Origin: Escherichia phage SUT_E1620
DNA: 64,000 bases
Sequence record: OQ939939
Direction: 5' to 3' (one strand)
Positions within the stretch are counted from its first letter, which is position 1, and every line of letters starts with the position of its first letter. Of the stretch, positions 40,027-46,708 are shown piece by piece. The translations under genes were made by a program, and so were the position numbers. Under the pieces are notes generated by a model. That model was not told the DNA's origin. It worked only from the letters and a program-made list of their open reading frames with translations, and made no database searches.

Positions 40027-40288
40027 TTTCTTTAATAAGTTCCCCTAATTCTCTATAAACTTGGTCGAGTTCAAACCCTATTCGTAAGGATATCCGCACC
40101 TTCCGTTGTTTTAGTAACCAAATAGACACATTTGGGATACCTGCTAACCTCGGAGGAACTACACGACATAGTTTCTCCGCAGTATCGTAAACAGAAGTTT
40201 TACGTTCTTTTATGGGAAACTTCCTTGTTTCCCACTTTTTATTCTTCACTATCATTTCTAGCTCCCAATTCAGCAAGAGCTTCCTCAT
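40004..40288 (-). CDS. hypothetical small protein (doubtful)
   Basis: 94 aa ORF overlapping the 3' end of the large helicase gene and the 5' end of the HNH gene. Confidence 0.2.
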   Translation of the reverse strand: MRKLLLNWELEMIVKNKKWETRKFPIKERKTSVYDTAEKLCRVVPPRLAGIPNVSIWLLKQRKVRISLRIGFELDQVYRELGELIKENDNSRGS

Positions 40289-43151
40289 GCATCTGACGTT
40301 CTTCGTCTGTCATAAACTTAACTGGAATCGGCATACATTCGATCTTACAGTAAGTTCTGTACCAGTCCACAATCTTTTCCGTATCCAGATCTTTACCGAT
40401 ACCCATCATGCCAAGATACATACGAGCATATTTTGGGTTAGCACTCTGACCTGTCTTAAGGAAGAAATCCTTCTTCTTATTCTTAAGAGCTTCGATAAAC
40501 GGTTTGATTGTTACATTTGAACACTTCTTAATATCTTCCCAGAACATGTCGTGCATCTTATGGAAGAATGCAGCTCTATCGTTTGGTTTATCCTTGATAT
40601 ACTGTTCAACGTGTTCCACTGTTACATCTTTAATAGAATCCAGATGATAATAGCGAACCAGAAGTAACTTGGCTTCATAGGCATCTGCATGACGTGGTGC
40701 GCAATATTCAGGAGTTGAGTGCAAAATAGCTTTGATTCGCTCTTCTGTATACTCTTTGCCTGCACCTTCGATAGTCCCCCAGCTTTCACTGAAGATATCA
40801 ATAGTTGCACCTTGATCGAGAAGATAATAACGCAAAGTACTGGTATAGTTTCTAGATTCCAGCTCACGACGGCGTGCGTACAGTTGCTGAGCTAACTCAA
40901 TCCAACCCTCGTCAATATTATATTGCTCGGAACCCGCAGAGAATCCACTCGTAGATTTATCAATAAAATAATAAATGTTCTGAGCACCACGGTCGCGCCT
41001 GATTGCTTGAAAACGCATGTTTGGCGCTTGGTTTGAGGTTCTAGTGATTACGAATACGTTATCAAAATAGTTAAAGTCAACACCACTCGTTACAGATGGA
41101 CTACATAACAAACAATCAATCTGTTGATCAATTAGCTCATTAGTTGTATAATCCAGAATACGTCGGATATCTACATCAGACGTAGAGTTTGAGTGAATTT
41201 CTTTAACTAACGCACCAGTATTACGACGTAATGCCATTCCTTTTTCATTCAGTTCATCCGGTCCACAGTCAGATACTAGGATTGACTTCTCACCCATCTC
41301 TAGAGATGTTTGAAGTGCAACCCAAATACTGGATTCGTCAGGGAATTCATAAGCGTGAGCTTTCGCCAGCATTTTACGGTGATGATTATAGAATGCAACT
41401 GGTTTATCAAAATCAATCAAAGAACCATAGGCTTCAATCGTTTCTGCACTGATATCACCATCAGATAAGATAACAGTTTTAGCAGTAATAAGGATATCAC
41501 GAAGAACCTGAATACATTCACGACGGTTTTTAACAACCGGAGCGAATAACAGATCATTCATTACTGCGTCACATTCATCAATAAAGATCGTATCAATCTG
41601 ACCCACAAAGCTCTTGAACTTATGGATAGAGTGAATAGTTGAAGACATACGATCAATAGCACCACGTTTGAAGTTCAGCATATCAACTGACTTATCATAC
41701 TGGCCAGCACCGAATTTCTTCGCGTTAGAAGATACAAGTGCCCTAGTATTTGTGATTGCAATAAAGTTTCCTGGAAGAACACCTGCATCTAGCCACTTAG
41801 TTACTGCTGTAGTTTTACCCGTACCAAGACTTGCCTTAACAAATGTTAAATGTCCTTTTGGGGGTACAATGTTAATCTTCAGGTATGGAACTTCGGGAGG
41901 TGAATCTGTATCCAGACGTTTTAATGGTACGCCTTTTAAGTTGGGCGGAATCTCACGTTTGGAGTTATTTACAAATGCTTTGAGAGCCTGCTTACGACCG
42001 TTATTAAAGTAATCTTGAATATTACGACTATTATCTTTAGTTGCAATATATTCAGATAAAGCTGGTTTAATCTCACGTTCTAACCACGTAAAGTCAACAC
42101 CATCTTCTAACGCTCTGTGATAAAGTTTTGGGATAATACGCAGGTACACTCCATCCTCAGCTTCTTCTAGCTCGCTGATGGTTTCTTCCACTTTATCAGA
42201 TGCAGCCTTCTTGCCTTTAATTTGGTCAAGTAAGGAGTAGAATTCTTCTTTGAACTCACCTCTAGTTGTTTCAAAGTCAACTAGGTTATTAGGTAGATTC
42301 ACCTTCGAACCCTTAACATACACAAGACGTGGTTTATTCTCCGCTTTAAACGGATCGACTATACCATCATCAAATAGGGGATCTGCAAAATAGTGAAGCT
42401 GAACAGAAGAATAATAAGCTAAGTCAGCAATATCAAAGCCATACTTTTGCTTACTACTGTCATTTATAGATGTAAATAAGAACTTTAACTGTCCCTGCGT
42501 TACCTTGACATTAGATTCTAGCATTAAGTGCATTCGGATACCTGGTTTTAATCCAGCCGAAGACGATGCATGGGCAATAAACCCTGCATCAAGAGGAAAC
42601 ATATCCTCACTAATACTATTCAACATCTTAATAATATGACGTGCCATGCCAACAAGATTAAACTTGTCATAGCCCCCAGTATCTACAATACCATCCACGT
42701 CCATAGCAATAATATGACTAGGATTGGATACGTTAAAGTTTCCTCTGGTACGACGCACATTATCTTTTGGAGCTAAACATTTACCACGAATAGCTACAAT
42801 ATGCGGGTCTTTGGTAAGACGACGCATGATAGGTAACATTTCAGCAAGGTTTTGCGGGTCAAGTTCTTCAAGTACATCAAATTTGAAGGGCATGGAAGCT
42901 GGTTTACCTTCTGGATGCTCTTTAGAGAATCGCTTTGCAAAGGTGTAATCTTCCACTTTGATCTCTTTCCAGATGCCAGTGGCTTTATCTCTGGAAAATC
43001 CTGCGTGACCTTGTAGGATTGAGAACACAACAATACTCCTATGTTGGTTATTCGGATATCTTTCTTTAGGACTATTCAAAAGAATAGAACAACTATTACT
43101 ACCATTTACACAAACATTAATCATCATCAAGCAGTATGAATAAGTTATCAT
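40239..43151 (-). CDS. origin-binding-protein-like SF2 helicase
   Basis: Walker A SLGTGKTT and Walker B IFIDECD; probable true start is a GTG about 41 codons into the track ORF (near 43028), preceded by AGGAG. Confidence 0.55.
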   Translation of the reverse strand: MITYSYCLMMINVCVNGSNSCSILLNSPKERYPNNQHRSIVVFSILQGHAGFSRDKATGIWKEIKVEDYTFAKRFSKEHPEGKPASMPFKFDVLEELDPQNLAEMLPIMRRLTKDPHIVAIRGKCLAPKDNVRRTRGNFNVSNPSHIIAMDVDGIVDTGGYDKFNLVGMARHIIKMLNSISEDMFPLDAGFIAHASSSAGLKPGIRMHLMLESNVKVTQGQLKFLFTSINDSSKQKYGFDIADLAYYSSVQLHYFADPLFDDGIVDPFKAENKPRLVYVKGSKVNLPNNLVDFETTRGEFKEEFYSLLDQIKGKKAASDKVEETISELEEAEDGVYLRIIPKLYHRALEDGVDFTWLEREIKPALSEYIATKDNSRNIQDYFNNGRKQALKAFVNNSKREIPPNLKGVPLKRLDTDSPPEVPYLKINIVPPKGHLTFVKASLGTGKTTAVTKWLDAGVLPGNFIAITNTRALVSSNAKKFGAGQYDKSVDMLNFKRGAIDRMSSTIHSIHKFKSFVGQIDTIFIDECDAVMNDLLFAPVVKNRRECIQVLRDILITAKTVILSDGDISAETIEAYGSLIDFDKPVAFYNHHRKMLAKAHAYEFPDESSIWVALQTSLEMGEKSILVSDCGPDELNEKGMALRRNTGALVKEIHSNSTSDVDIRRILDYTTNELIDQQIDCLLCSPSVTSGVDFNYFDNVFVITRTSNQAPNMRFQAIRRDRGAQNIYYFIDKSTSGFSAGSEQYNIDEGWIELAQQLYARRRELESRNYTSTLRYYLLDQGATIDIFSESWGTIEGAGKEYTEERIKAILHSTPEYCAPRHADAYEAKLLLVRYYHLDSIKDVTVEHVEQYIKDKPNDRAAFFHKMHDMFWEDIKKCSNVTIKPFIEALKNKKKDFFLKTGQSANPKYARMYLGMMGIGKDLDTEKIVDWYRTYCKIECMPIPVKFMTDEERQMHEEALAELGARNDSEE

Positions 43152-43522
43152 ACCTCAGTGCTGCGCTCTCTTAACTCTTATCCAGATCAGAACCTAGGTC
43201 ATTGGCCGCTAAGCCGATTCTGATTGCCCTCACTATCCTATTGGTAGGTGGCTACTGGACGTGTCACCATTCGCTGCTCTTTTCGTTCGCACCCCCATAT
43301 AAAGCTCTGCCTATATAACGAGCTAAATATGCACGGTTTGGATTTACCTTTCCGAATTCAGGGTACGCAGATCACTTAATTGATAATTAACTAATGCAGT
43401 ATAAACACTAGTAATAGTTAAAACAACCCTTAATGGGGCAGCCTAACTGTTCCGTATTGCGGATTGTAAACAAGAAAAATTAGCAAAATCAATTTTTACT
43501 AATGTCTCTCATTTATGGGAAT

Positions 43523-43552
43523 ATTATACTATAAAATAATACTCCCTTGCAA
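43523..43552 (-). promoter_or_regulatory. promoter directed into ORF-free region upstream of origin-binding-helicase-like gene
   Basis: TTGCAA-18-TATAAT on - strand. Confidence 0.45.
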
Positions 43553-43560
43553 ATGAAATT

Positions 43561-44067
43561 TTACTGGATTGATTCCCTACCGTATAATTGACCTCTAAAC
43601 ATCTTGGCCATAGAACATGCAACCTCATAGTTGTCATATGTTCCTTTAACTATACGTTTACGGTTAATAGTAAATACTACTTGCCAATTCTTACTACCAG
43701 AAGGGTAAACATGCATTCCTTTCTTATATTTGATATTTCTTAGATTACCGGATACTGTTTGCTCTCTAAGATTTTCAATACGATCATCACCTTTTATAGT
43801 ATTCACATGATCTACTAAATCAGGTAAGTATCCATGATGCATTAAAAATATTGCTCTATGCCGAAGCATAGTCCTATTCCCTAGAGATATACGATAATAT
43901 CCGTTACCCGTAGAAACACAACATTCTTTCCCTGCATTTCTTCCTGTAGTTCTAAATAACTTACCATCTTCATATCGGAAGTTATCTAAAAGTTCTTGCT
44001 GTGTGAATGACATCCTCACCTCCAATACATATATTATTACATAATCCATCCAAATTGTCAACGACAA
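43561..44067 (-). CDS. HNH homing endonuclease
   Basis: HNH motif (HRAIFLMHHGYLPDLVDHVNTIKGDDRIENL); probable start at internal Met (MSFTQQ, about 44013) preceded by GGAGG. Confidence 0.6.
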   Translation of the reverse strand: MSLTIWMDYVIIYVLEVRMSFTQQELLDNFRYEDGKLFRTTGRNAGKECCVSTGNGYYRISLGNRTMLRHRAIFLMHHGYLPDLVDHVNTIKGDDRIENLREQTVSGNLRNIKYKKGMHVYPSGSKNWQVVFTINRKRIVKGTYDNYEVACSMAKMFRGQLYGRESIQ

Positions 44068-44070
44068 TTT
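44052..44070. promoter_or_regulatory. perfect 19-bp palindrome, candidate protein-binding site
   Basis: AAATTGTC-AAC-GACAATTT in the intergenic region upstream of the HNH gene. Confidence 0.3.
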
Positions 44071-44152
44071 ATTTTGACTGTCAATCGACTGGAAAGATTA
44101 CGTAATAATCCGAGCACTAATAGCCCGGATTACAAATTTCAGCTAATAAAAA

Positions 44153-44548
44153 TCATTCATCATTTAAGCCCGAAACATAAATCCCAACACGATTTAATTG
44201 TTCTTTAGCTTCTGCGAGAATATTTGGAGTGTACTCCCAAATATCATCTTCCACCTGTAAAAGATGGGGCGAACAACCGTCATCAGGCACACGACATATG
44301 GCCAAACCACGTGGATGGAATATAGAGAAGTTTAGGGCAACAATCAAGCCCATGCTGGACAATTCATTCCAGTCAGCTTCCCAACCATCATCTTCATTTT
44401 CGTCCACAAAGACACCTACACTAGGGTCTGTTACAGAAGTAAACGGAAATGTTACACTAACCTTGTCAACCCCCCACCAACGTGCAAGGAGCCCCTCAGC
44501 ACGCTCTACCAAACTAGGATCTATCTGACGCCAAAATACTTGTTCCAT
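44153..44548 (-). CDS. hypothetical protein, paralog A of a tandem pair
   Basis: 131 aa; about 35 percent identity by eye to the adjacent 142-aa ORF (shared W..ELxxMGL..ALN...P...SP...G). Confidence 0.45.
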   Translation of the reverse strand: MEQVFWRQIDPSLVERAEGLLARWWGVDKVSVTFPFTSVTDPSVGVFVDENEDDGWEADWNELSSMGLIVALNFSIFHPRGLAICRVPDDGCSPHLLQVEDDIWEYTPNILAEAKEQLNRVGIYVSGLNDE

Positions 44549-44557
44549 TCTGCCTCC

Positions 44558-44986
44558 TTAAGCAGTTAAACCTGGGATCATATACCCGAAACGACGAAGT
44601 TTCTGAATTCCCTCATTTACTTCCTCGGGCGAATATGACCAGCCCTCACGTTCATTTACCTGGAAAGCAGGAGCTTCACCAGTGCGATAATTTACAATAA
44701 GACGGTGATTTGCAGGCATAAACAGCTTATGGTTCAAGGCAAAAACCAGACCCATTTCATCGAGTTCTTTCCAGTCTACAATCTCTTCTACTCCCTCCCC
44801 TAAATCCACGCTAACTCCAATACACGGAGCTTCCTCTAGCGGGCCTTTAAAGGATAAGAAGATATCGTTATTCTCACACCAAATCTTGAGCAGATTGATG
44901 GTTTCATTATACATACCATTAGGGAGAGAGCGCCAGAAGTTGAGAAGCATAGGATTTACCTCTTTCATGAAAATATTATTGAACAT
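44558..44986 (-). CDS. hypothetical protein, paralog B of a tandem pair
   Basis: 142 aa; homologous to adjacent 131-aa ORF. Confidence 0.45.
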   Translation of the reverse strand: MFNNIFMKEVNPMLLNFWRSLPNGMYNETINLLKIWCENNDIFLSFKGPLEEAPCIGVSVDLGEGVEEIVDWKELDEMGLVFALNHKLFMPANHRLIVNYRTGEAPAFQVNEREGWSYSPEEVNEGIQKLRRFGYMIPGLTA

Positions 44987-44988
44987 GC

Positions 44989-45528
44989 TTATACCTTAAG
45001 TTTCTGAAGAGCCTTACACATTTCAAGATCTGGACTAAATTCCAGCATATAGCTGATAGCATTTAAATCTTGAAGGTTTATTCCAGTCCTACCATTTACA
45101 ATAACAGTAGGAAATTGGTACATCATAGCACCAGCATCATCTAGGACGCACCAATGCTTGAGCTTATGTTTTTCTACGAAACGTAAGACAGAATTACCTC
45201 GAGATAAACCACCTCCAGTAAAATCTGTTGTACCAAGGAAACGATCGATCAAACCGAGCCCGGTCATAATCTGAACGTTCTCCATCTCGTTTCGTACAGA
45301 AAACCATGAAGATACCCCAACAATCATTATTGGAGAAGGTTTAAGGAAGTTCTGAAAAGCCTGGAGTAATGGCTTATAAACCCAATCACTACCAAAGAAT
45401 AGCTTTTCACTATCTGGAGCATGATGGTGAGAGATGCTCGAATTGAGCACCCCATCAATATCCAGGAAAATTATAGGAGTATTACTTATTTCCACCAGTA
45501 GCATCCCACGTCCAGACTTTAACTTCAT
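44989..45528 (-). CDS. HAD-superfamily phosphatase-like protein
   Basis: 179 aa; motif I FLDIDGVLN near N-terminus; probable start at internal Met (MLLVEISN...). Confidence 0.4.
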   Translation of the reverse strand: MKLKSGRGMLLVEISNTPIIFLDIDGVLNSSISHHHAPDSEKLFFGSDWVYKPLLQAFQNFLKPSPIMIVGVSSWFSVRNEMENVQIMTGLGLIDRFLGTTDFTGGGLSRGNSVLRFVEKHKLKHWCVLDDAGAMMYQFPTVIVNGRTGINLQDLNAISYMLEFSPDLEMCKALQKLKV

Positions 45529-45667
45529 CAGTAAAAGGAACTGGAACCTTCAGCTCACCTTTACCCCACATAACAGATAGGAACAGAGAATAAATGGTAA
45601 TCATACCGATTAGGTTGACAAACCATACTAGACCTTTCCAGATACCCTTAAAAATCTTCTTTATCAT
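45482..45667 (-). CDS. small membrane protein
   Basis: 61 aa with one hydrophobic helix (WFVNLIGMITIYSLFLSVMW). Confidence 0.3.
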   Translation of the reverse strand: MIKKIFKGIWKGLVWFVNLIGMITIYSLFLSVMWGKGELKVPVPFTDEVKVWTWDATGGNK

Positions 45668-45879
45668 TCGTTCTCCTCTAGGAACGCTTTATGTTCCGGT
45701 GTGTCGATATAGATTACACAGAAATCATCTGACATATAATCCATTTCCCACAACTCTTCACGATAGCACCATGTTTTATCTGGCCATACAATTATATCAT
45801 CAGGGTGTCTTTTAGGTGATTTGTAAAATCGGGGATCTGATCCCATATCTCCCATTTTACCCTTATTAGGATGCGACAT
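45664..45879 (-). CDS. hypothetical protein
   Basis: 71 aa; coupled to flanking genes by 4-nt overlaps. Confidence 0.3.
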   Translation of the reverse strand: MSHPNKGKMGDMGSDPRFYKSPKRHPDDIIVWPDKTWCYREELWEMDYMSDDFCVIYIDTPEHKAFLEENE

Positions 45880-46708
45880 AAATAGTTCCTTCCATAAAGG
45901 CTTCTACTTGACCAATGAAATGCTTGTTACCAAAAACTTCGGCAGCTCCAGCACGCCATACAGTAACACCACGTTTCTCATACTCAAGCTGTTCGTCATA
46001 ACGAACTTGTGGGTTAACAACCATCATCTTAGTTCCACGACATACAGCAGGAAATAGCTCCCAGTTGAAGTCGATTACTTGGTTGCTACAACCTACTACA
46101 ATAACCATATCATTGCTAGTAAGTGTATCAAACAGGTTAATCTGACCCATATACCACGGAGCCGTCTCACCAAAGAATGTTACGTTTGGTTTTACCCATT
46201 CGTAATCCTCAGGGGCAATCGCAGTATACCCAACATCTTCGATGATTTGGTTGCGACCCTGACGATAGATCACCTCTTTCAAGTACCCGTGAGCGTGAAT
46301 GATTTCATCACGAGGGATACCAGCACGTTCCAGAAGGTCATCAACGTTAGTAGTGAAGTTCTTCACGCTATCCGCACCATAACGCTGGAACCATTCTGCA
46401 ATTCGCAGATGGGCAATGTTAGGCTCAACAGTCTGTAATTCCTGACGACGCATATTGTAGAACTCATGAGTCTTGAGATACAGATCGTTACCATCTTCAT
46501 CAATGCCATGGAAACGAGCACTGAAGTAGTTAGGGTCATCTTCACCACAGAAGCGACGGAAGCCAGCTTCAAAGTTAGGCAAGCTACATACTTCCTCTAG
46601 ATCGTACTCATCCCACAAGGATTTCCCACTAGCAGTATCAGTACGGAAAGCACGAACACCACTATCTACACTCAAACCTGCACCACTAACAACGATTAGT
46701 CTACGCAT
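45866..46708 (-). CDS. Sir2-family (sirtuin-like) NAD+-binding protein lacking the Zn-ribbon
   Basis: 280 aa; sirtuin motifs in order: GAGLSVDSGVRAFR, NIAHLRIAEW, TTNVDDL, HG, FFGE, VVGCS, VVN; no Cys pairs between HG and FGE. Confidence 0.65.
   Translation of the reverse strand: MRRLIVVSGAGLSVDSGVRAFRTDTASGKSLWDEYDLEEVCSLPNFEAGFRRFCGEDDPNYFSARFHGIDEDGNDLYLKTHEFYNMRRQELQTVEPNIAHLRIAEWFQRYGADSVKNFTTNVDDLLERAGIPRDEIIHAHGYLKEVIYRQGRNQIIEDVGYTAIAPEDYEWVKPNVTFFGETAPWYMGQINLFDTLTSNDMVIVVGCSNQVIDFNWELFPAVCRGTKMMVVNPQVRYDEQLEYEKRGVTVWRAGAAEVFGNKHFIGQVEAFMEGTIYVAS

What the first reader, a model, noticed from the sequence alone, without database searches (positions are those of the whole stretch)
43029..43560. 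About 500-bp ORF-free, GC-richer leader between a strong promoter and the origin-binding-helicase-like gene
A promoter (TTGCAA-18-TATAAT, - strand, about 43523-43552) fires into a region with no ORF of 60 aa or more. The first plausible start of the 970-aa helicase gene is a GTG near 43028 preceded by AGGAG; the track ATG at 43151 has no SD and an odd Cys/Ile-rich N-terminus. The intervening sequence is GC-richer than typical intergenic DNA here and has several potential stems. Candidates are a structured leader or sRNA regulating the replication gene, or a replication origin placed next to its binding protein.
Basis: partly seen in the sequence, partly recalled or inferred. Interest (0 to 1): 0.5.

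Follow-up and report, generated by a model that had tools for sequence, protein, structure and literature searches.

The report
Large folded leader RNA before T5 helicase gene
The 490 bases between a strong promoter and the replication-initiator helicase gene of this T5-like phage encode a large, evolutionarily conserved, intricately folded RNA that no database or paper I could search describes, and it may control the helicase gene or mark the phage's still unmapped replication origin.

Summary
The window is a T5-like Salmonella phage. A sigma-70 promoter (43552-43523, - strand) fires into about 488 nt with no conserved ORF. These end at AGGAG-GTG (43028), the conserved start of the D2/origin-binding helicase.

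The stretch is a structured RNA. The sense strand folds at -143.7 kcal/mol (z about -5), the antisense at -106 (z -2.1). In 17 relatives, 153 consensus pairs stay 99.8% paired, and 12 pairs show compensatory double changes (0-1 in controls). One-sided changes give G·U in 29 pairs and A·C in 4, so the transcribed strand is the selected one.

No Rfam family, tRNA, E. coli or plasmid sequence matches, and no searchable paper mentions it.

The RNA has two versions. Their ends are near-identical and their 300-nt cores are unalignable, yet the helix layout is the same. Each version travels with its own form of the helicase's first 433 residues.

Promoter plus long leader precedes this gene across Demerecviridae. 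A hairpin loop CUUAGCGG is invariant in the enterobacterial and Aeromonas lineages.

The function is untested. I favour cis control of D2 expression with type-specific recognition. A primer or origin RNA is the main rival.

The parts
43523..43552 (-). sigma-70 promoter: -35 TTGCAA 43547-43552, 18-nt spacer, -10 TATAAT 43523-43528. This is the version carried by the homing-endonuclease cassette.
   Evidence: 10/12 matches. Conserved in relatives. T5 annotates a promoter here. HEG-less phages have TTGCAG-17-TGATATAAT instead.
43029..43516 (-). Whole leader RNA, about 488 nt, from the predicted transcription start (about 43516-43510) to the base before the GTG.
   Evidence: MFE -143.7 kcal/mol, z -4.7. 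Sense versus antisense asymmetry. 153 consensus pairs with covariation. Same length in all 441 T5-like records.
43472..43510 (-). P1: 16-bp AU-rich hairpin starting about 6 nt after the transcription start, followed by UUUUUCUU. Invariant in both alleles.
   Evidence: Annotated as a 'terminator' in phage Stitch. It is the site of the optional 97-nt insertion.
43435..43455 (-). Conserved 5' motif ACGGAACAGUUAGGCUGCCCC.
   Evidence: Invariant in alleles A and B. Present in My1. Partly conserved in Sugarland (ACAGAACAGUCCGGCUGC) and Aeromonas phage TS3.
43380..43420 (-). P2 rod, 5' arm.
   Evidence: It pairs with 43090-43130. The rod has 35 bp in allele A and 38 bp in allele B, with different sequence beyond the first 8 bp. 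Inverted repeat I1.
43090..43130 (-). P2 rod, 3' arm.
43157..43376 (-). Variable core closed by P3 (GAUCUGCG / CGCAGC). It is a multibranch domain holding P4a, P4b, P5, P5a and P5b.
   Evidence: A versus B divergence is 0.52, against 0.03-0.085 within alleles. 9 of the 12 compensatory pairs lie here; the other three are one in the P2 rod and two in P6.
43186..43224 (-). P5b hairpin. The 9-bp stem AUCAGAAUC/GGUUCUGAU carries a 21-nt loop.
   Evidence: 4 compensatory pairs within allele A. The stem sequence differs in every lineage while the loop motif is kept.
43206..43213 (-). Loop motif CUUAGCGG, invariant across T5 A and B, Sugarland, My1, PSTCR5, the L073 lineage and Aeromonas phage TS3.
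   Evidence: these are the only invariant columns in that alignment.
43133..43154 (-). P6 hairpin GGUAUGA-UAACUUAU-UCAUACU. It contains the mechanical 'ATG 43151'.
   Evidence: 2 compensatory pairs. Allele B has GAGUGG/CCACUU at the same place, with U-A to G-C changes.
43072..43087 (-). P7 hairpin CUAUUC-UUUU-GAAUAG in the invariant 3' segment.
   Evidence: Sugarland has CUAUC/GAUAG at the same place.
43026..43043 (-). Translation initiation region: small hairpin with AGGAG (43036-43040) in the loop, and the GTG start at 43026-43028.
40239..43028 (-). D2 / 'replication origin binding' bipolar SF2 helicase, 929 aa. Residues 1-433 co-segregate with the RNA allele.
   Evidence: PF02399 at residues 391-533. 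PHROG 3712. Wong et al. 2013, PMC3632103. Fixed A/B differences.

Best explanation
Shown: the region is the template of a roughly 488-nt, highly structured RNA. It is transcribed from the promoter at 43552-43523 as the 5' leader of the D2 (origin-binding-type, bipolar SF2) helicase mRNA. Its fold is under purifying selection on the transcribed strand. The fold consists of a 5' hairpin P1, a conserved single-stranded or hairpin motif, a 35-38-bp rod P2, a closing helix P3, a multibranch core with the CUUAGCGG loop hairpin, then P6 and P7, and finally the Shine-Dalgarno sequence in a small hairpin loop.

Inferred: the leader acts in cis on D2 expression. The invariant 5' and 3' segments set transcript fate. 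The P2 rod is the kind of long dsRNA that host RNase III cuts. Cutting there would free the core and leave D2 mRNA with a short 75-nt leader. The fast-diverging core is recognised type-specifically by the N-terminal part of D2 itself. This would give feedback control of the initiator helicase, in the manner of phage translational operators but on a far larger RNA.
For: Transcription unit:
- A promoter lies directly in front of the region, there is no intrinsic terminator before the GTG, and the conserved, folded sequence starts at the predicted +1.
- T5 annotates a promoter followed by a 470-nt unannotated gap before the CDS.

Structure:
- MFE has z -4.7 to -5.0 on the sense strand and -2.1 on the antisense.
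- Allele A has 153 pairs, 99.8% of cells paired, and 12 pairs with double changes. Shuffles give 4.9±1.2 (0 of 500 reach 12), and slid partners give 0-1.
- Allele B has 7 such pairs against 0-1 in controls.
- One-sided changes give G·U in 29 variable pairs and A·C in 4.
- Both alleles keep the same order and size of helices despite 52% core divergence.

Constraint:
- Allele A is 96-99% identical between two genera whose flanking genes are 60-88% identical.

Link to D2:
- A strong promoter 474-1063 nt upstream, followed by a long leader, precedes the OBP gene in every Demerecviridae lineage examined except Aeromonas phage TS3, where only a weak promoter-like site 195 nt upstream was found.
- Fixed A/B differences occur only from the RNA core to D2 codon about 433. 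None occur in the 2.1 kb upstream or the 2.4 kb downstream.
- Counts over the whole phage collection agree: 274 records carry the A-type RNA and 275 carry the A-type D2 patch.

Non-coding:
- No conserved ORF. The upstream ATG extension is lineage-specific.
Against: - There is no expression, processing or binding data.
- The predicted pairing of the leader with the ribosome-binding region is not conserved in Sugarland or My1 (by inspection).
- The predicted helix-turn-helix of D2 (residues 308-329; Wong 2013) shows no fixed A/B difference. Specific recognition, if real, must use other residues.
- The co-segregation of core and D2 N-terminus could be plain physical linkage of adjacent DNA.
- One lineage (L073/L074) has a consensus promoter 36 nt before the OBP start that bypasses the RNA. 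This argues that the RNA has a role beyond being a leader.
- A 0.5-1 kb leader is far larger than any known translational operator.
Confidence: 0.45

Rival explanations
1. Primer or origin RNA. The transcript from this strong early promoter folds and then forms a persistent RNA-DNA hybrid next to the initiator gene. D2 is loaded there in a type-specific way and the RNA, or a processed end of it, primes leading-strand synthesis. This would be analogous to ColE1 RNA II, the T4 R-loop origins and the promoter-dependent primary origin of T7. The region would then be the primary replication origin of T5.
For: - The RNA is always adjacent to the gene of the only origin-binding-type protein of the phage.
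- The size (about 490 nt) and promoter-driven structured transcript resemble ColE1 RNA II (my knowledge).
- The RNA core and the D2 N-terminal 433 residues form one exchange module, as origins and initiator specificity domains do in lambdoid phages (the analogy is from my knowledge).
- The sense strand is G-rich over C, which favours RNA-DNA hybrids.
- In T5 the site lies at 48.5% of the genome. From memory, Bourguignon et al. 1976 (cited; paper not held) saw early replication eyes near the middle. That is unverified.
- In Vibrio and Aeromonas relatives the region is a 1.1-1.6-kb divergent intergenic spacer.
Against: - No iterons or direct repeats.
- GC skew does not switch here.
- There is no antisense promoter inside the RNA for an RNA I-like regulator.
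- Transcription continues into D2, so the RNA is also an mRNA.
- There is no replication data of any kind.
Confidence: 0.25
2. Independent stable non-coding RNA. The P2 rod is a processing stalk, as for rRNA. The roughly 300-nt core is excised and acts in trans, for example as a scaffold of a ribonucleoprotein, or as a decoy or inhibitor of a host defence or nuclease. Its linkage to D2 is only transcriptional.
For: - A 35-38-bp rod flanks a compact multibranch core in both alleles.
- The L073/L074 lineage gives the OBP gene its own consensus promoter downstream of the RNA.
- There are two sharply different cores inside otherwise near-identical genomes. Flanking genes are 84-100% identical while the core is 34-49% identical. 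This resembles diversifying or arms-race replacement.
- An optional 97-nt expansion segment is present in 51 genomes, as seen in large stable RNAs.
- The size and complexity are comparable to large ornate ncRNAs, some of which are phage-borne (PMC12286853, listed).
Against: - There is no terminator or defined 3' end.
- It is always upstream of the same gene across the family.
- It co-segregates with the D2 N-terminus.
- There is no match to any described large ncRNA.
Confidence: 0.17
3. DNA-level element. The pairings are used in single-stranded DNA or a cruciform, as a hairpin origin recognised by the helicase. The activated hairpin form of herpesvirus oriS and the stem-loop origin of pRN1 are precedents. 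The RNA itself would have no role.
For: - D2 is related to UL9-type origin-binding helicases.
- Covariation alone cannot tell RNA from the same-sense single DNA strand.
Against: - The fold begins exactly at the promoter's +1 and ends at the ribosome-binding site.
- There are 37 invariant G·U pairs and a 29:4 excess of G·U over A·C states, which fits RNA better than DNA.
- The antisense strand folds poorly, so a two-strand cruciform is not what is selected.
- A 490-nt multibranch single-stranded DNA fold has no precedent known to me.
Confidence: 0.06
4. Non-functional spacer or decayed gene whose apparent structure is chance.
For: No functional data exist. Annotators leave the region empty or place short hypothetical ORFs in it.
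Against: - It is more conserved than the neighbouring genes.
- Compensatory changes far exceed the controls.
- Length is constant in 441 genomes.
- The short ORFs are not conserved between alleles.
Confidence: 0.02

Closest known systems
ColE1/pMB1 RNA II pre-primer
   Same: It is a structured transcript of about 500-550 nt from a constitutive sigma-70 promoter, its folding decides its fate, and it lies next to the replication function. Related replicons carry divergent, type-specific versions.
   Different: No sequence or Rfam similarity. No antisense RNA I promoter was found. The T5 RNA runs on into a protein-coding gene. R-loop formation and RNase H cleavage are untested.
Phage translational operators and autoregulated leaders (T4 gene 32, gene 43, regA targets)
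   Same: These are 5' leaders of replication genes. The product of the gene binds its own leader, and the structure is conserved.
   Different: Those operators are 20-100 nt, whereas this leader is about 490 nt with at least 15 helices. Binding by D2 is untested.
RNase III processing stalks (rRNA precursors, T7 early mRNA sites, lambda N leader)
   Same: A long, nearly perfect double-stranded rod is formed by sequences that flank a folded domain. P2 has 35-38 bp.
   Different: Cleavage was not tested. The T7 sites are single hairpins of about 50 nt, not closures of a 300-nt domain.
Large ornate non-coding RNAs (OLE, GOLLD, ROOL, HEARO, raiA)
   Same: Similar size and structural complexity, islands of invariant nucleotides in loops, and, for GOLLD and ROOL, presence in phages.
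   Different: No match to any of them in Rfam 15. This RNA always sits as the leader of one particular gene and is restricted to one phage family.
HK022 put RNA (cis-acting antitermination RNA)
   Same: A folded RNA lies immediately downstream of an early promoter, its sequence is strongly conserved, and it acts on the transcribing host polymerase (my knowledge). This could explain the 100% identity of the first 130 nt.
   Different: put is about 70 nt with two hairpins. No terminators downstream were examined and no similarity was tested.

Membership tests
Any Rfam 15 family (4227 models, including riboswitches, RNase P, tmRNA, 6S, OLE, GOLLD, ROOL, HEARO, raiA, ribozymes) | Covariance-model match at or near the gathering score | tested here: not met
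   No sense-strand hit at E up to 10 in 43020-43530. Nothing at E up to 1 in 41000-46000 except a chance snoRNA hit inside the gene. Nothing in the leaders of six other lineages.
RNase P RNA | CR-I and CR-V sequences forming the P4 pseudoknot. By eye, CAGAAUCGGCUUAGCGGCCA resembles ACAGAAcccGGCUUAuCGGuCA. | tested here: not met
   No RNase P model matched. No AAGUCCG-type partner for a P4 helix is present in either allele (inspection). Only CUUAGCGG is conserved in other lineages.
tRNA / tmRNA | Cloverleaf or tmRNA detected by ARAGORN | tested here: not met
   0 genes in the whole window.
Terminator-based attenuator or riboswitch leader | Intrinsic terminator, or a helix that sequesters the Shine-Dalgarno sequence, that can alternate with an antiterminator | tested here: inconclusive
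   No GC-rich terminator between the promoter and the GTG. P1 is an AU-rich hairpin followed by UUUUUCUU and was annotated as a terminator in phage Stitch. No conserved anti-SD pairing was seen.
ColE1-type primer RNA II | Structured pre-primer of about 550 nt from its own promoter | tested here: met
   488-nt structured transcript unit. This is a resemblance of form only.
ColE1-type primer RNA II | Antisense RNA I promoter within the 5' part of the pre-primer | tested here: not met
   No + strand promoter-like site inside 43029-43516. The nearest is at 43560-43588, outside the RNA and only in the endonuclease cassette.
ColE1-type primer RNA II | Persistent R-loop at the origin and RNase H processing into a primer | not testable with these tools
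   This needs DRIP-seq, in vitro replication or origin mapping.
Iteron-type replication origin | Several direct repeats for the initiator plus an AT-rich unwinding element | tested here: not met
   Only two-copy chance-level direct repeats were found, and the one long inverted repeat is the P2 rod. The AT-rich segment 43400-43520 is the invariant 5' part of the RNA.
RNase III processing stalk | At least 20 bp of near-continuous dsRNA closing a domain | tested here: met
   P2 has 19+16 bp in allele A and 31+7 bp in allele B.
RNase III processing stalk | Cleavage by RNase III in vivo | not testable with these tools
   This needs an rnc mutant host or in vitro cleavage.
Autoregulatory translational operator | The gene product binds its own leader and represses translation | not testable with these tools
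   Only indirect evidence exists: the RNA core co-segregates with D2 residues 1-433.

The most novel reading that the evidence does not exclude
The leader is the RNA half of the long-sought primary replication origin of T5-like phages. The folded transcript forms an R-loop or ribonucleoprotein beside its template. The N-terminal domain of D2 recognises its own core type and loads the bipolar helicase there. That domain carries invariant DxD, SxxGxxxGxRxH and D..YY motifs that look like an archaeo-eukaryotic primase active site (by eye only). The two idiomorphic RNA-plus-D2 modules would then be replication-specificity types comparable to plasmid incompatibility groups.
Probability: 0.2. Interest if true: 0.85.

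Novelty: new variant of a known kind. Interest (0 to 1): 0.62.

Why it matters
T5 is a classical model phage, and its relatives are widely isolated as Salmonella and E. coli phages, yet its reference annotation leaves this 470-nt stretch empty. Several points make the stretch worth attention:

- An RNA of this size and conservation is rare in phages. It is more conserved than the genes around it.
- It sits in front of the only origin-binding-type protein of a phage whose replication origins have never been located at sequence level. This gives a concrete, testable candidate either for origin function or for control of replication initiation.
- The two exchangeable RNA-core-plus-helicase-N-terminus modules offer a natural swap experiment.
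- Practically, genome annotators currently call spurious short ORFs, or extend the helicase ORF, into this RNA.

Tried and rejected
- **Rfam.** Scans of the window and of six distant homologous leaders found nothing.
- **ARAGORN.** No tRNA or tmRNA.
- **RNase P idea.** It came from the CAGAAUCGGCUUA resemblance and is rejected.
- **Origin signatures.** No iterons. The GC skew follows gene orientation only.
- **Loop partner.** I searched all lineages for a conserved base-pairing partner of the CUUAGCGG loop. UGCUAA in P1 fits T5 and My1 but not Sugarland or PSTCR5, so no pseudoknot is claimed.
- **Leader pairing with the ribosome-binding region.** The MFE pairing of GCAAUAC with the SD-GUG spacer is not conserved outside T5-likes, so I dropped it.
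- **Covariance model.** MAFFT could not column-align the stems of the CUUAGCGG hairpin across lineages, so no model was built.
- **Wider sequence searches.** E. coli genomes and plasmids gave no match. The metagenome scan with the 5' motif found only seven allele-B copies.
- **D2 N-terminal domain.** There is no Pfam or PDB relative. A weak RNase H3 hit (E 0.0075) vanished with a profile. The single-sequence AlphaFold model had pLDDT 35.6 and was discarded. The search for homologous proteins returned one partial protein only, so no alignment-based model was possible.
- **Literature.** Seven searches, including the literal sequences, found no paper on this RNA. Bourguignon 1976 is not held.
- **Vibrio phage leaders.** They are conserved in islands, but homology with the T5 RNA was not established.
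Full report
**What the window is.** The stretch 42900-43700 is 99% identical to Salmonella phages of the T5 group (Epseptimavirus; bobsandoy, KFSSM, S132). It is found in 441 phage records, all T5-like. On the - strand the order of features is:

- two DUF7415 genes;
- an HNH_3 homing endonuclease (43561-44067);
- the region in question;
- a 929-aa protein with the herpes origin-binding-protein helicase signature, PHROG 'replication origin binding'.

That protein is the T5 D2 bipolar helicase studied by Wong et al. 2013 (PMC3632103).

- The promoter TTGCAA-18-TATAAT lies at 43552-43523.
- No ORF of 60 aa or more lies between it and 43151.
- The in-frame ATG at 43151 exists only in the Epseptimavirus branch. 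T5 and most relatives have a stop 16-30 codons before the GTG and no ATG. GTG 43028 with AGGAG at 43036-43040 is therefore the conserved start, and it is the start that nearly all annotated relatives use.
- T5's own record has a terminator, a promoter, then 470 unannotated bases before the CDS.
- GC content is 0.45 only in the central 300 bp. The first 120 bp are AT-rich.

**It is a folded RNA.** Three lines of evidence point to an RNA read from the promoter.

- *Folding energy.* The transcript from about 43516 to 43026 folds at -143.7 kcal/mol, with z -4.7 and none of 100 shuffles as stable. In T5-type A, T5-type B, My1, PSTCR5 and the L073 lineage the sense strand folds with a more negative z-score than the antisense, markedly so in T5 and L073 (for T5, z -5.0 and -4.4 against -2.1). 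Sugarland shows no difference and Vibrio phage Athena the reverse.
- *Covariation.* For 17 distinct allele-A sequences, RNAalifold gives 153 pairs. On that structure 99.8% of cells are standard pairs. Twelve pairs carry changes on both sides. Column shuffles give 4.9±1.2, with 0 of 500 reaching 12, and sliding the 3' partner by 1-3 columns gives 0-1. Thirteen allele-B sequences give 7 such pairs against 0-1 in controls.
- *Strand asymmetry.* A transition at a paired site gives G·U or A·C with equal prior chance. Here 29 variable pairs include a G·U state and only 4 include an A·C state. A further 37 G·U pairs are invariant. The strand under selection is therefore the one read from the promoter.

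One caveat applies. The structures were predicted on these same alignments with RNA energy rules, which favours them in such counts. The size of the effect and the slid controls make chance an unlikely explanation.

**Anatomy in window coordinates, - strand.**

- P1 (43472-43510): a 16-bp AU-rich hairpin that starts about 6 nt after +1 and is followed by UUUUUCUU.
- Conserved motif ACGGAACAGUUAGGCUGCCCC (43435-43455).
- P2: a 35-bp rod with arms at 43380-43420 and 43090-43130.
- P3: the closing helix GAUCUGCG/CGCAGC.
- A multibranch core (43157-43376) holding P4a, P4b, P5, P5a and P5b.
- P5b (43186-43224): its 21-nt loop carries CUUAGCGG (43206-43213).
- P6 (43133-43154): it holds the mechanical ATG.
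- P7 (43072-43087).
- A small hairpin with the Shine-Dalgarno sequence in its loop, followed by the GTG.
- No intrinsic terminator lies before the gene, so as far as sequence can tell the RNA is the leader of the D2 mRNA.

**Two versions.** T5-like phages carry one of two alleles.

- The first 130 nt or so and the last 80 nt or so are identical or nearly so between them. The 300-nt core is 52% divergent between alleles and 3-8% divergent within alleles. Length stays at 491-495 nt and the same helices occur in the same order.
- Two Tequintavirus genomes whose upstream genes are 84-100% identical differ completely in the core (34-49% identity). Conversely, allele A is 96-99% identical between Tequintavirus and Epseptimavirus, whose flanking genes are 60-88% identical.
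- In 28 genomes, fixed A/B differences occur only from the RNA core to D2 codon about 433. There are 117 in the RNA and 57 in the D2 N-terminus, with a second peak at residues 362-418 around the Walker A motif. None occur in 2.1 kb upstream or 2.4 kb downstream, although those flanks are highly polymorphic.
- Over the whole collection, 274 records carry the A-type RNA over at least 80% of its length, and 275 carry the A-type D2 patch.
- The RNA core and the first 433 residues of D2 therefore behave as one exchangeable module. Co-adaptation and plain linkage both fit this pattern.

**The family.** The arrangement extends across Demerecviridae.

- A strong promoter followed by a leader of 474-1063 nt precedes the OBP gene in Sugarland, My1, PSTCR5, L077, L073/L074 and the Vibrio phages Athena and JSF10. 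In Aeromonas phage TS3 only a weak site 195 nt upstream of the gene was found.
- In the Vibrio and Aeromonas phages the region is a divergent spacer of 1.1-1.6 kb next to nrdD.
- All the enterobacterial lineages begin with a hairpin at +1 and have a long-range-closed multibranch domain.
- CUUAGCGG sits in a large hairpin loop in seven lineages. Its stem has a different sequence in each: AUCAGAAUC/GGUUCUGAU, GCAAAUC/GAUUUGUGC, AUACGGG/CUCGUAU, CCACAUG/CAUG, CCACCU/AGGUGG, CCACGUAU/AUAUCGUGG and CCCGAAAA/UUUUUCGGG. These eight bases are the only invariant columns.
- Vibrio leaders are conserved in islands, but I could not show that they are homologous to the T5 RNA.
- The L073/L074 lineage adds a consensus promoter 36 nt before the OBP start.

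**What it is not.**

- It matches no Rfam family and contains no tRNA or tmRNA.
- It has no iterons and no GC-skew switch.
- It has no relative in E. coli genomes or plasmids.
- It has no conserved ORF.
- The resemblance of the loop region to RNase P CR-V is superficial.

**How it may work.** The shown part is a conserved, folded, sense-strand RNA element that forms the D2 leader. The rest is inference.

- *Favoured reading (0.45): cis control of D2.* The invariant ends fix transcript fate. The first bases also resemble the initial transcribed sequence of other T5 early promoters such as PN25, which from my knowledge contributes to promoter strength. The P2 rod is a plausible RNase III stalk. 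The core may be an operator that the D2 N-terminus recognises type-specifically.
- *Main rival (0.25): a primer or origin RNA* of the ColE1 RNA II, T4 R-loop or T7 kind. It explains the module with the initiator equally well and would locate the T5 origin.
- *Trans-acting excised RNA (0.17).* The bypass promoter in L073 and the arms-race-like core replacement favour this.
- *Purely DNA-level hairpin origin (0.06).* The G·U statistics and the coincidence of the fold with the transcription unit disfavour this.

**Novelty.** I found no description of this RNA in Rfam 15, in the annotation of any of the relatives inspected, or in seven full-text searches that included the literal sequences. The library lacks most subscription-journal papers, so earlier mention cannot be excluded. 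Structured leaders and large non-coding RNAs are known kinds. This one is a new family with unusual features: its size, its two idiomorphic cores, and its coupling to the initiator helicase.

**Limits.**

- All functional statements are inferences from sequence.
- The 28-genome association test uses related genomes.
- The consensus structures come from energy-based prediction.
- Distant homology rests on motifs and architecture, not on a covariance model.

Noticed in passing
Inserted at the equivalent of window 43479/43480 (after GCUAA of P1); seen in L004:1558-1654, L009, L025, L039: A 97-nt insertion flanked by an 8-bp direct repeat TTTTTCTT sits in the 3' strand of hairpin P1 of the leader RNA. 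It is present in 51 of about 441 T5-like genomes, one copy each and 94-100% identical, in both RNA alleles and both genera. It folds on its own (-22 kcal/mol). It is either an optional expansion segment or a site-specific mini-insertion.
   Followed up: partly
window 43561-44067 (- strand) and promoter 43523-43552; L016 (Shivani/SHSML-45 type): The HNH_3 homing-endonuclease cassette brings its own version of the leader promoter. That version is TTGCAAGGGAGTATTATTTTATAGTATAAT, whereas the native one is TTGCAGGATGCCCAAAATCTTGATATAAT. In L016 the cassette promoter plus the first 44 nt of the RNA (P1) are followed by the native promoter and a complete RNA, giving a partial duplication. The cassette occurs with both RNA alleles, so its homing site appears to be the promoter and start of the RNA.
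   Followed up: partly
window 41769-43028 (D2 residues 1-420), especially residues 105-210: The N-terminal domain of D2 has no Pfam or PDB relative. It does carry family-invariant motifs IIAMDVDG (DxD), SSSAGxKxGIRxH and D..YY, which by eye resemble motifs I-III of archaeo-eukaryotic primases. Some records call the protein 'DNA primase C'. This is not confirmed: Pfam primase models did not match and the single-sequence AlphaFold model was unusable (pLDDT 35.6).
   Followed up: partly
window 41775-41945 (D2 residues 362-418): This is a second peak of allele-specific divergence just before and around the Walker A motif. It differs by 31% between the A and B groups, against 8% within groups. It co-segregates with the RNA core, although the stretch between them shares many polymorphisms.
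   Followed up: yes
window 44153-44548 and 44558-44986 (- strand): Two tandem paralogous genes with DUF7415 domains lie directly upstream. Some records annotate them as 'phage exonuclease'.
   Followed up: no
L073:2386-2415 and L074 (Demerecviridae with OBP 64% identical): A perfect consensus promoter TTGACA-18-TATAAT lies 36 nt before the OBP start, in addition to the far promoter 767 nt upstream. In this lineage the gene can be transcribed without the RNA.
   Followed up: partly
L044:1331-2431 (Vibrio phage JSF10), L045:719-2308 (Aeromonas phage TS3), L087: These non-coding spacers of 1.1-1.6 kb lie between divergent nrdD and the OBP gene. JSF10 has 49% GC. TS3 contains two CUUAGCGG copies and a copy of the ACGGAAC...GUUAGGCUCC motif. 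One Vibrio phage (L087) has an extra insertion of about 90 nt in its leader.
   Followed up: partly
window 43560-43588 (+ strand): A promoter-like site TTTACT-17-TATAAT (10/12 matches) points away from the RNA, antisense to the end of the endonuclease gene. It is present only with the cassette.
   Followed up: no
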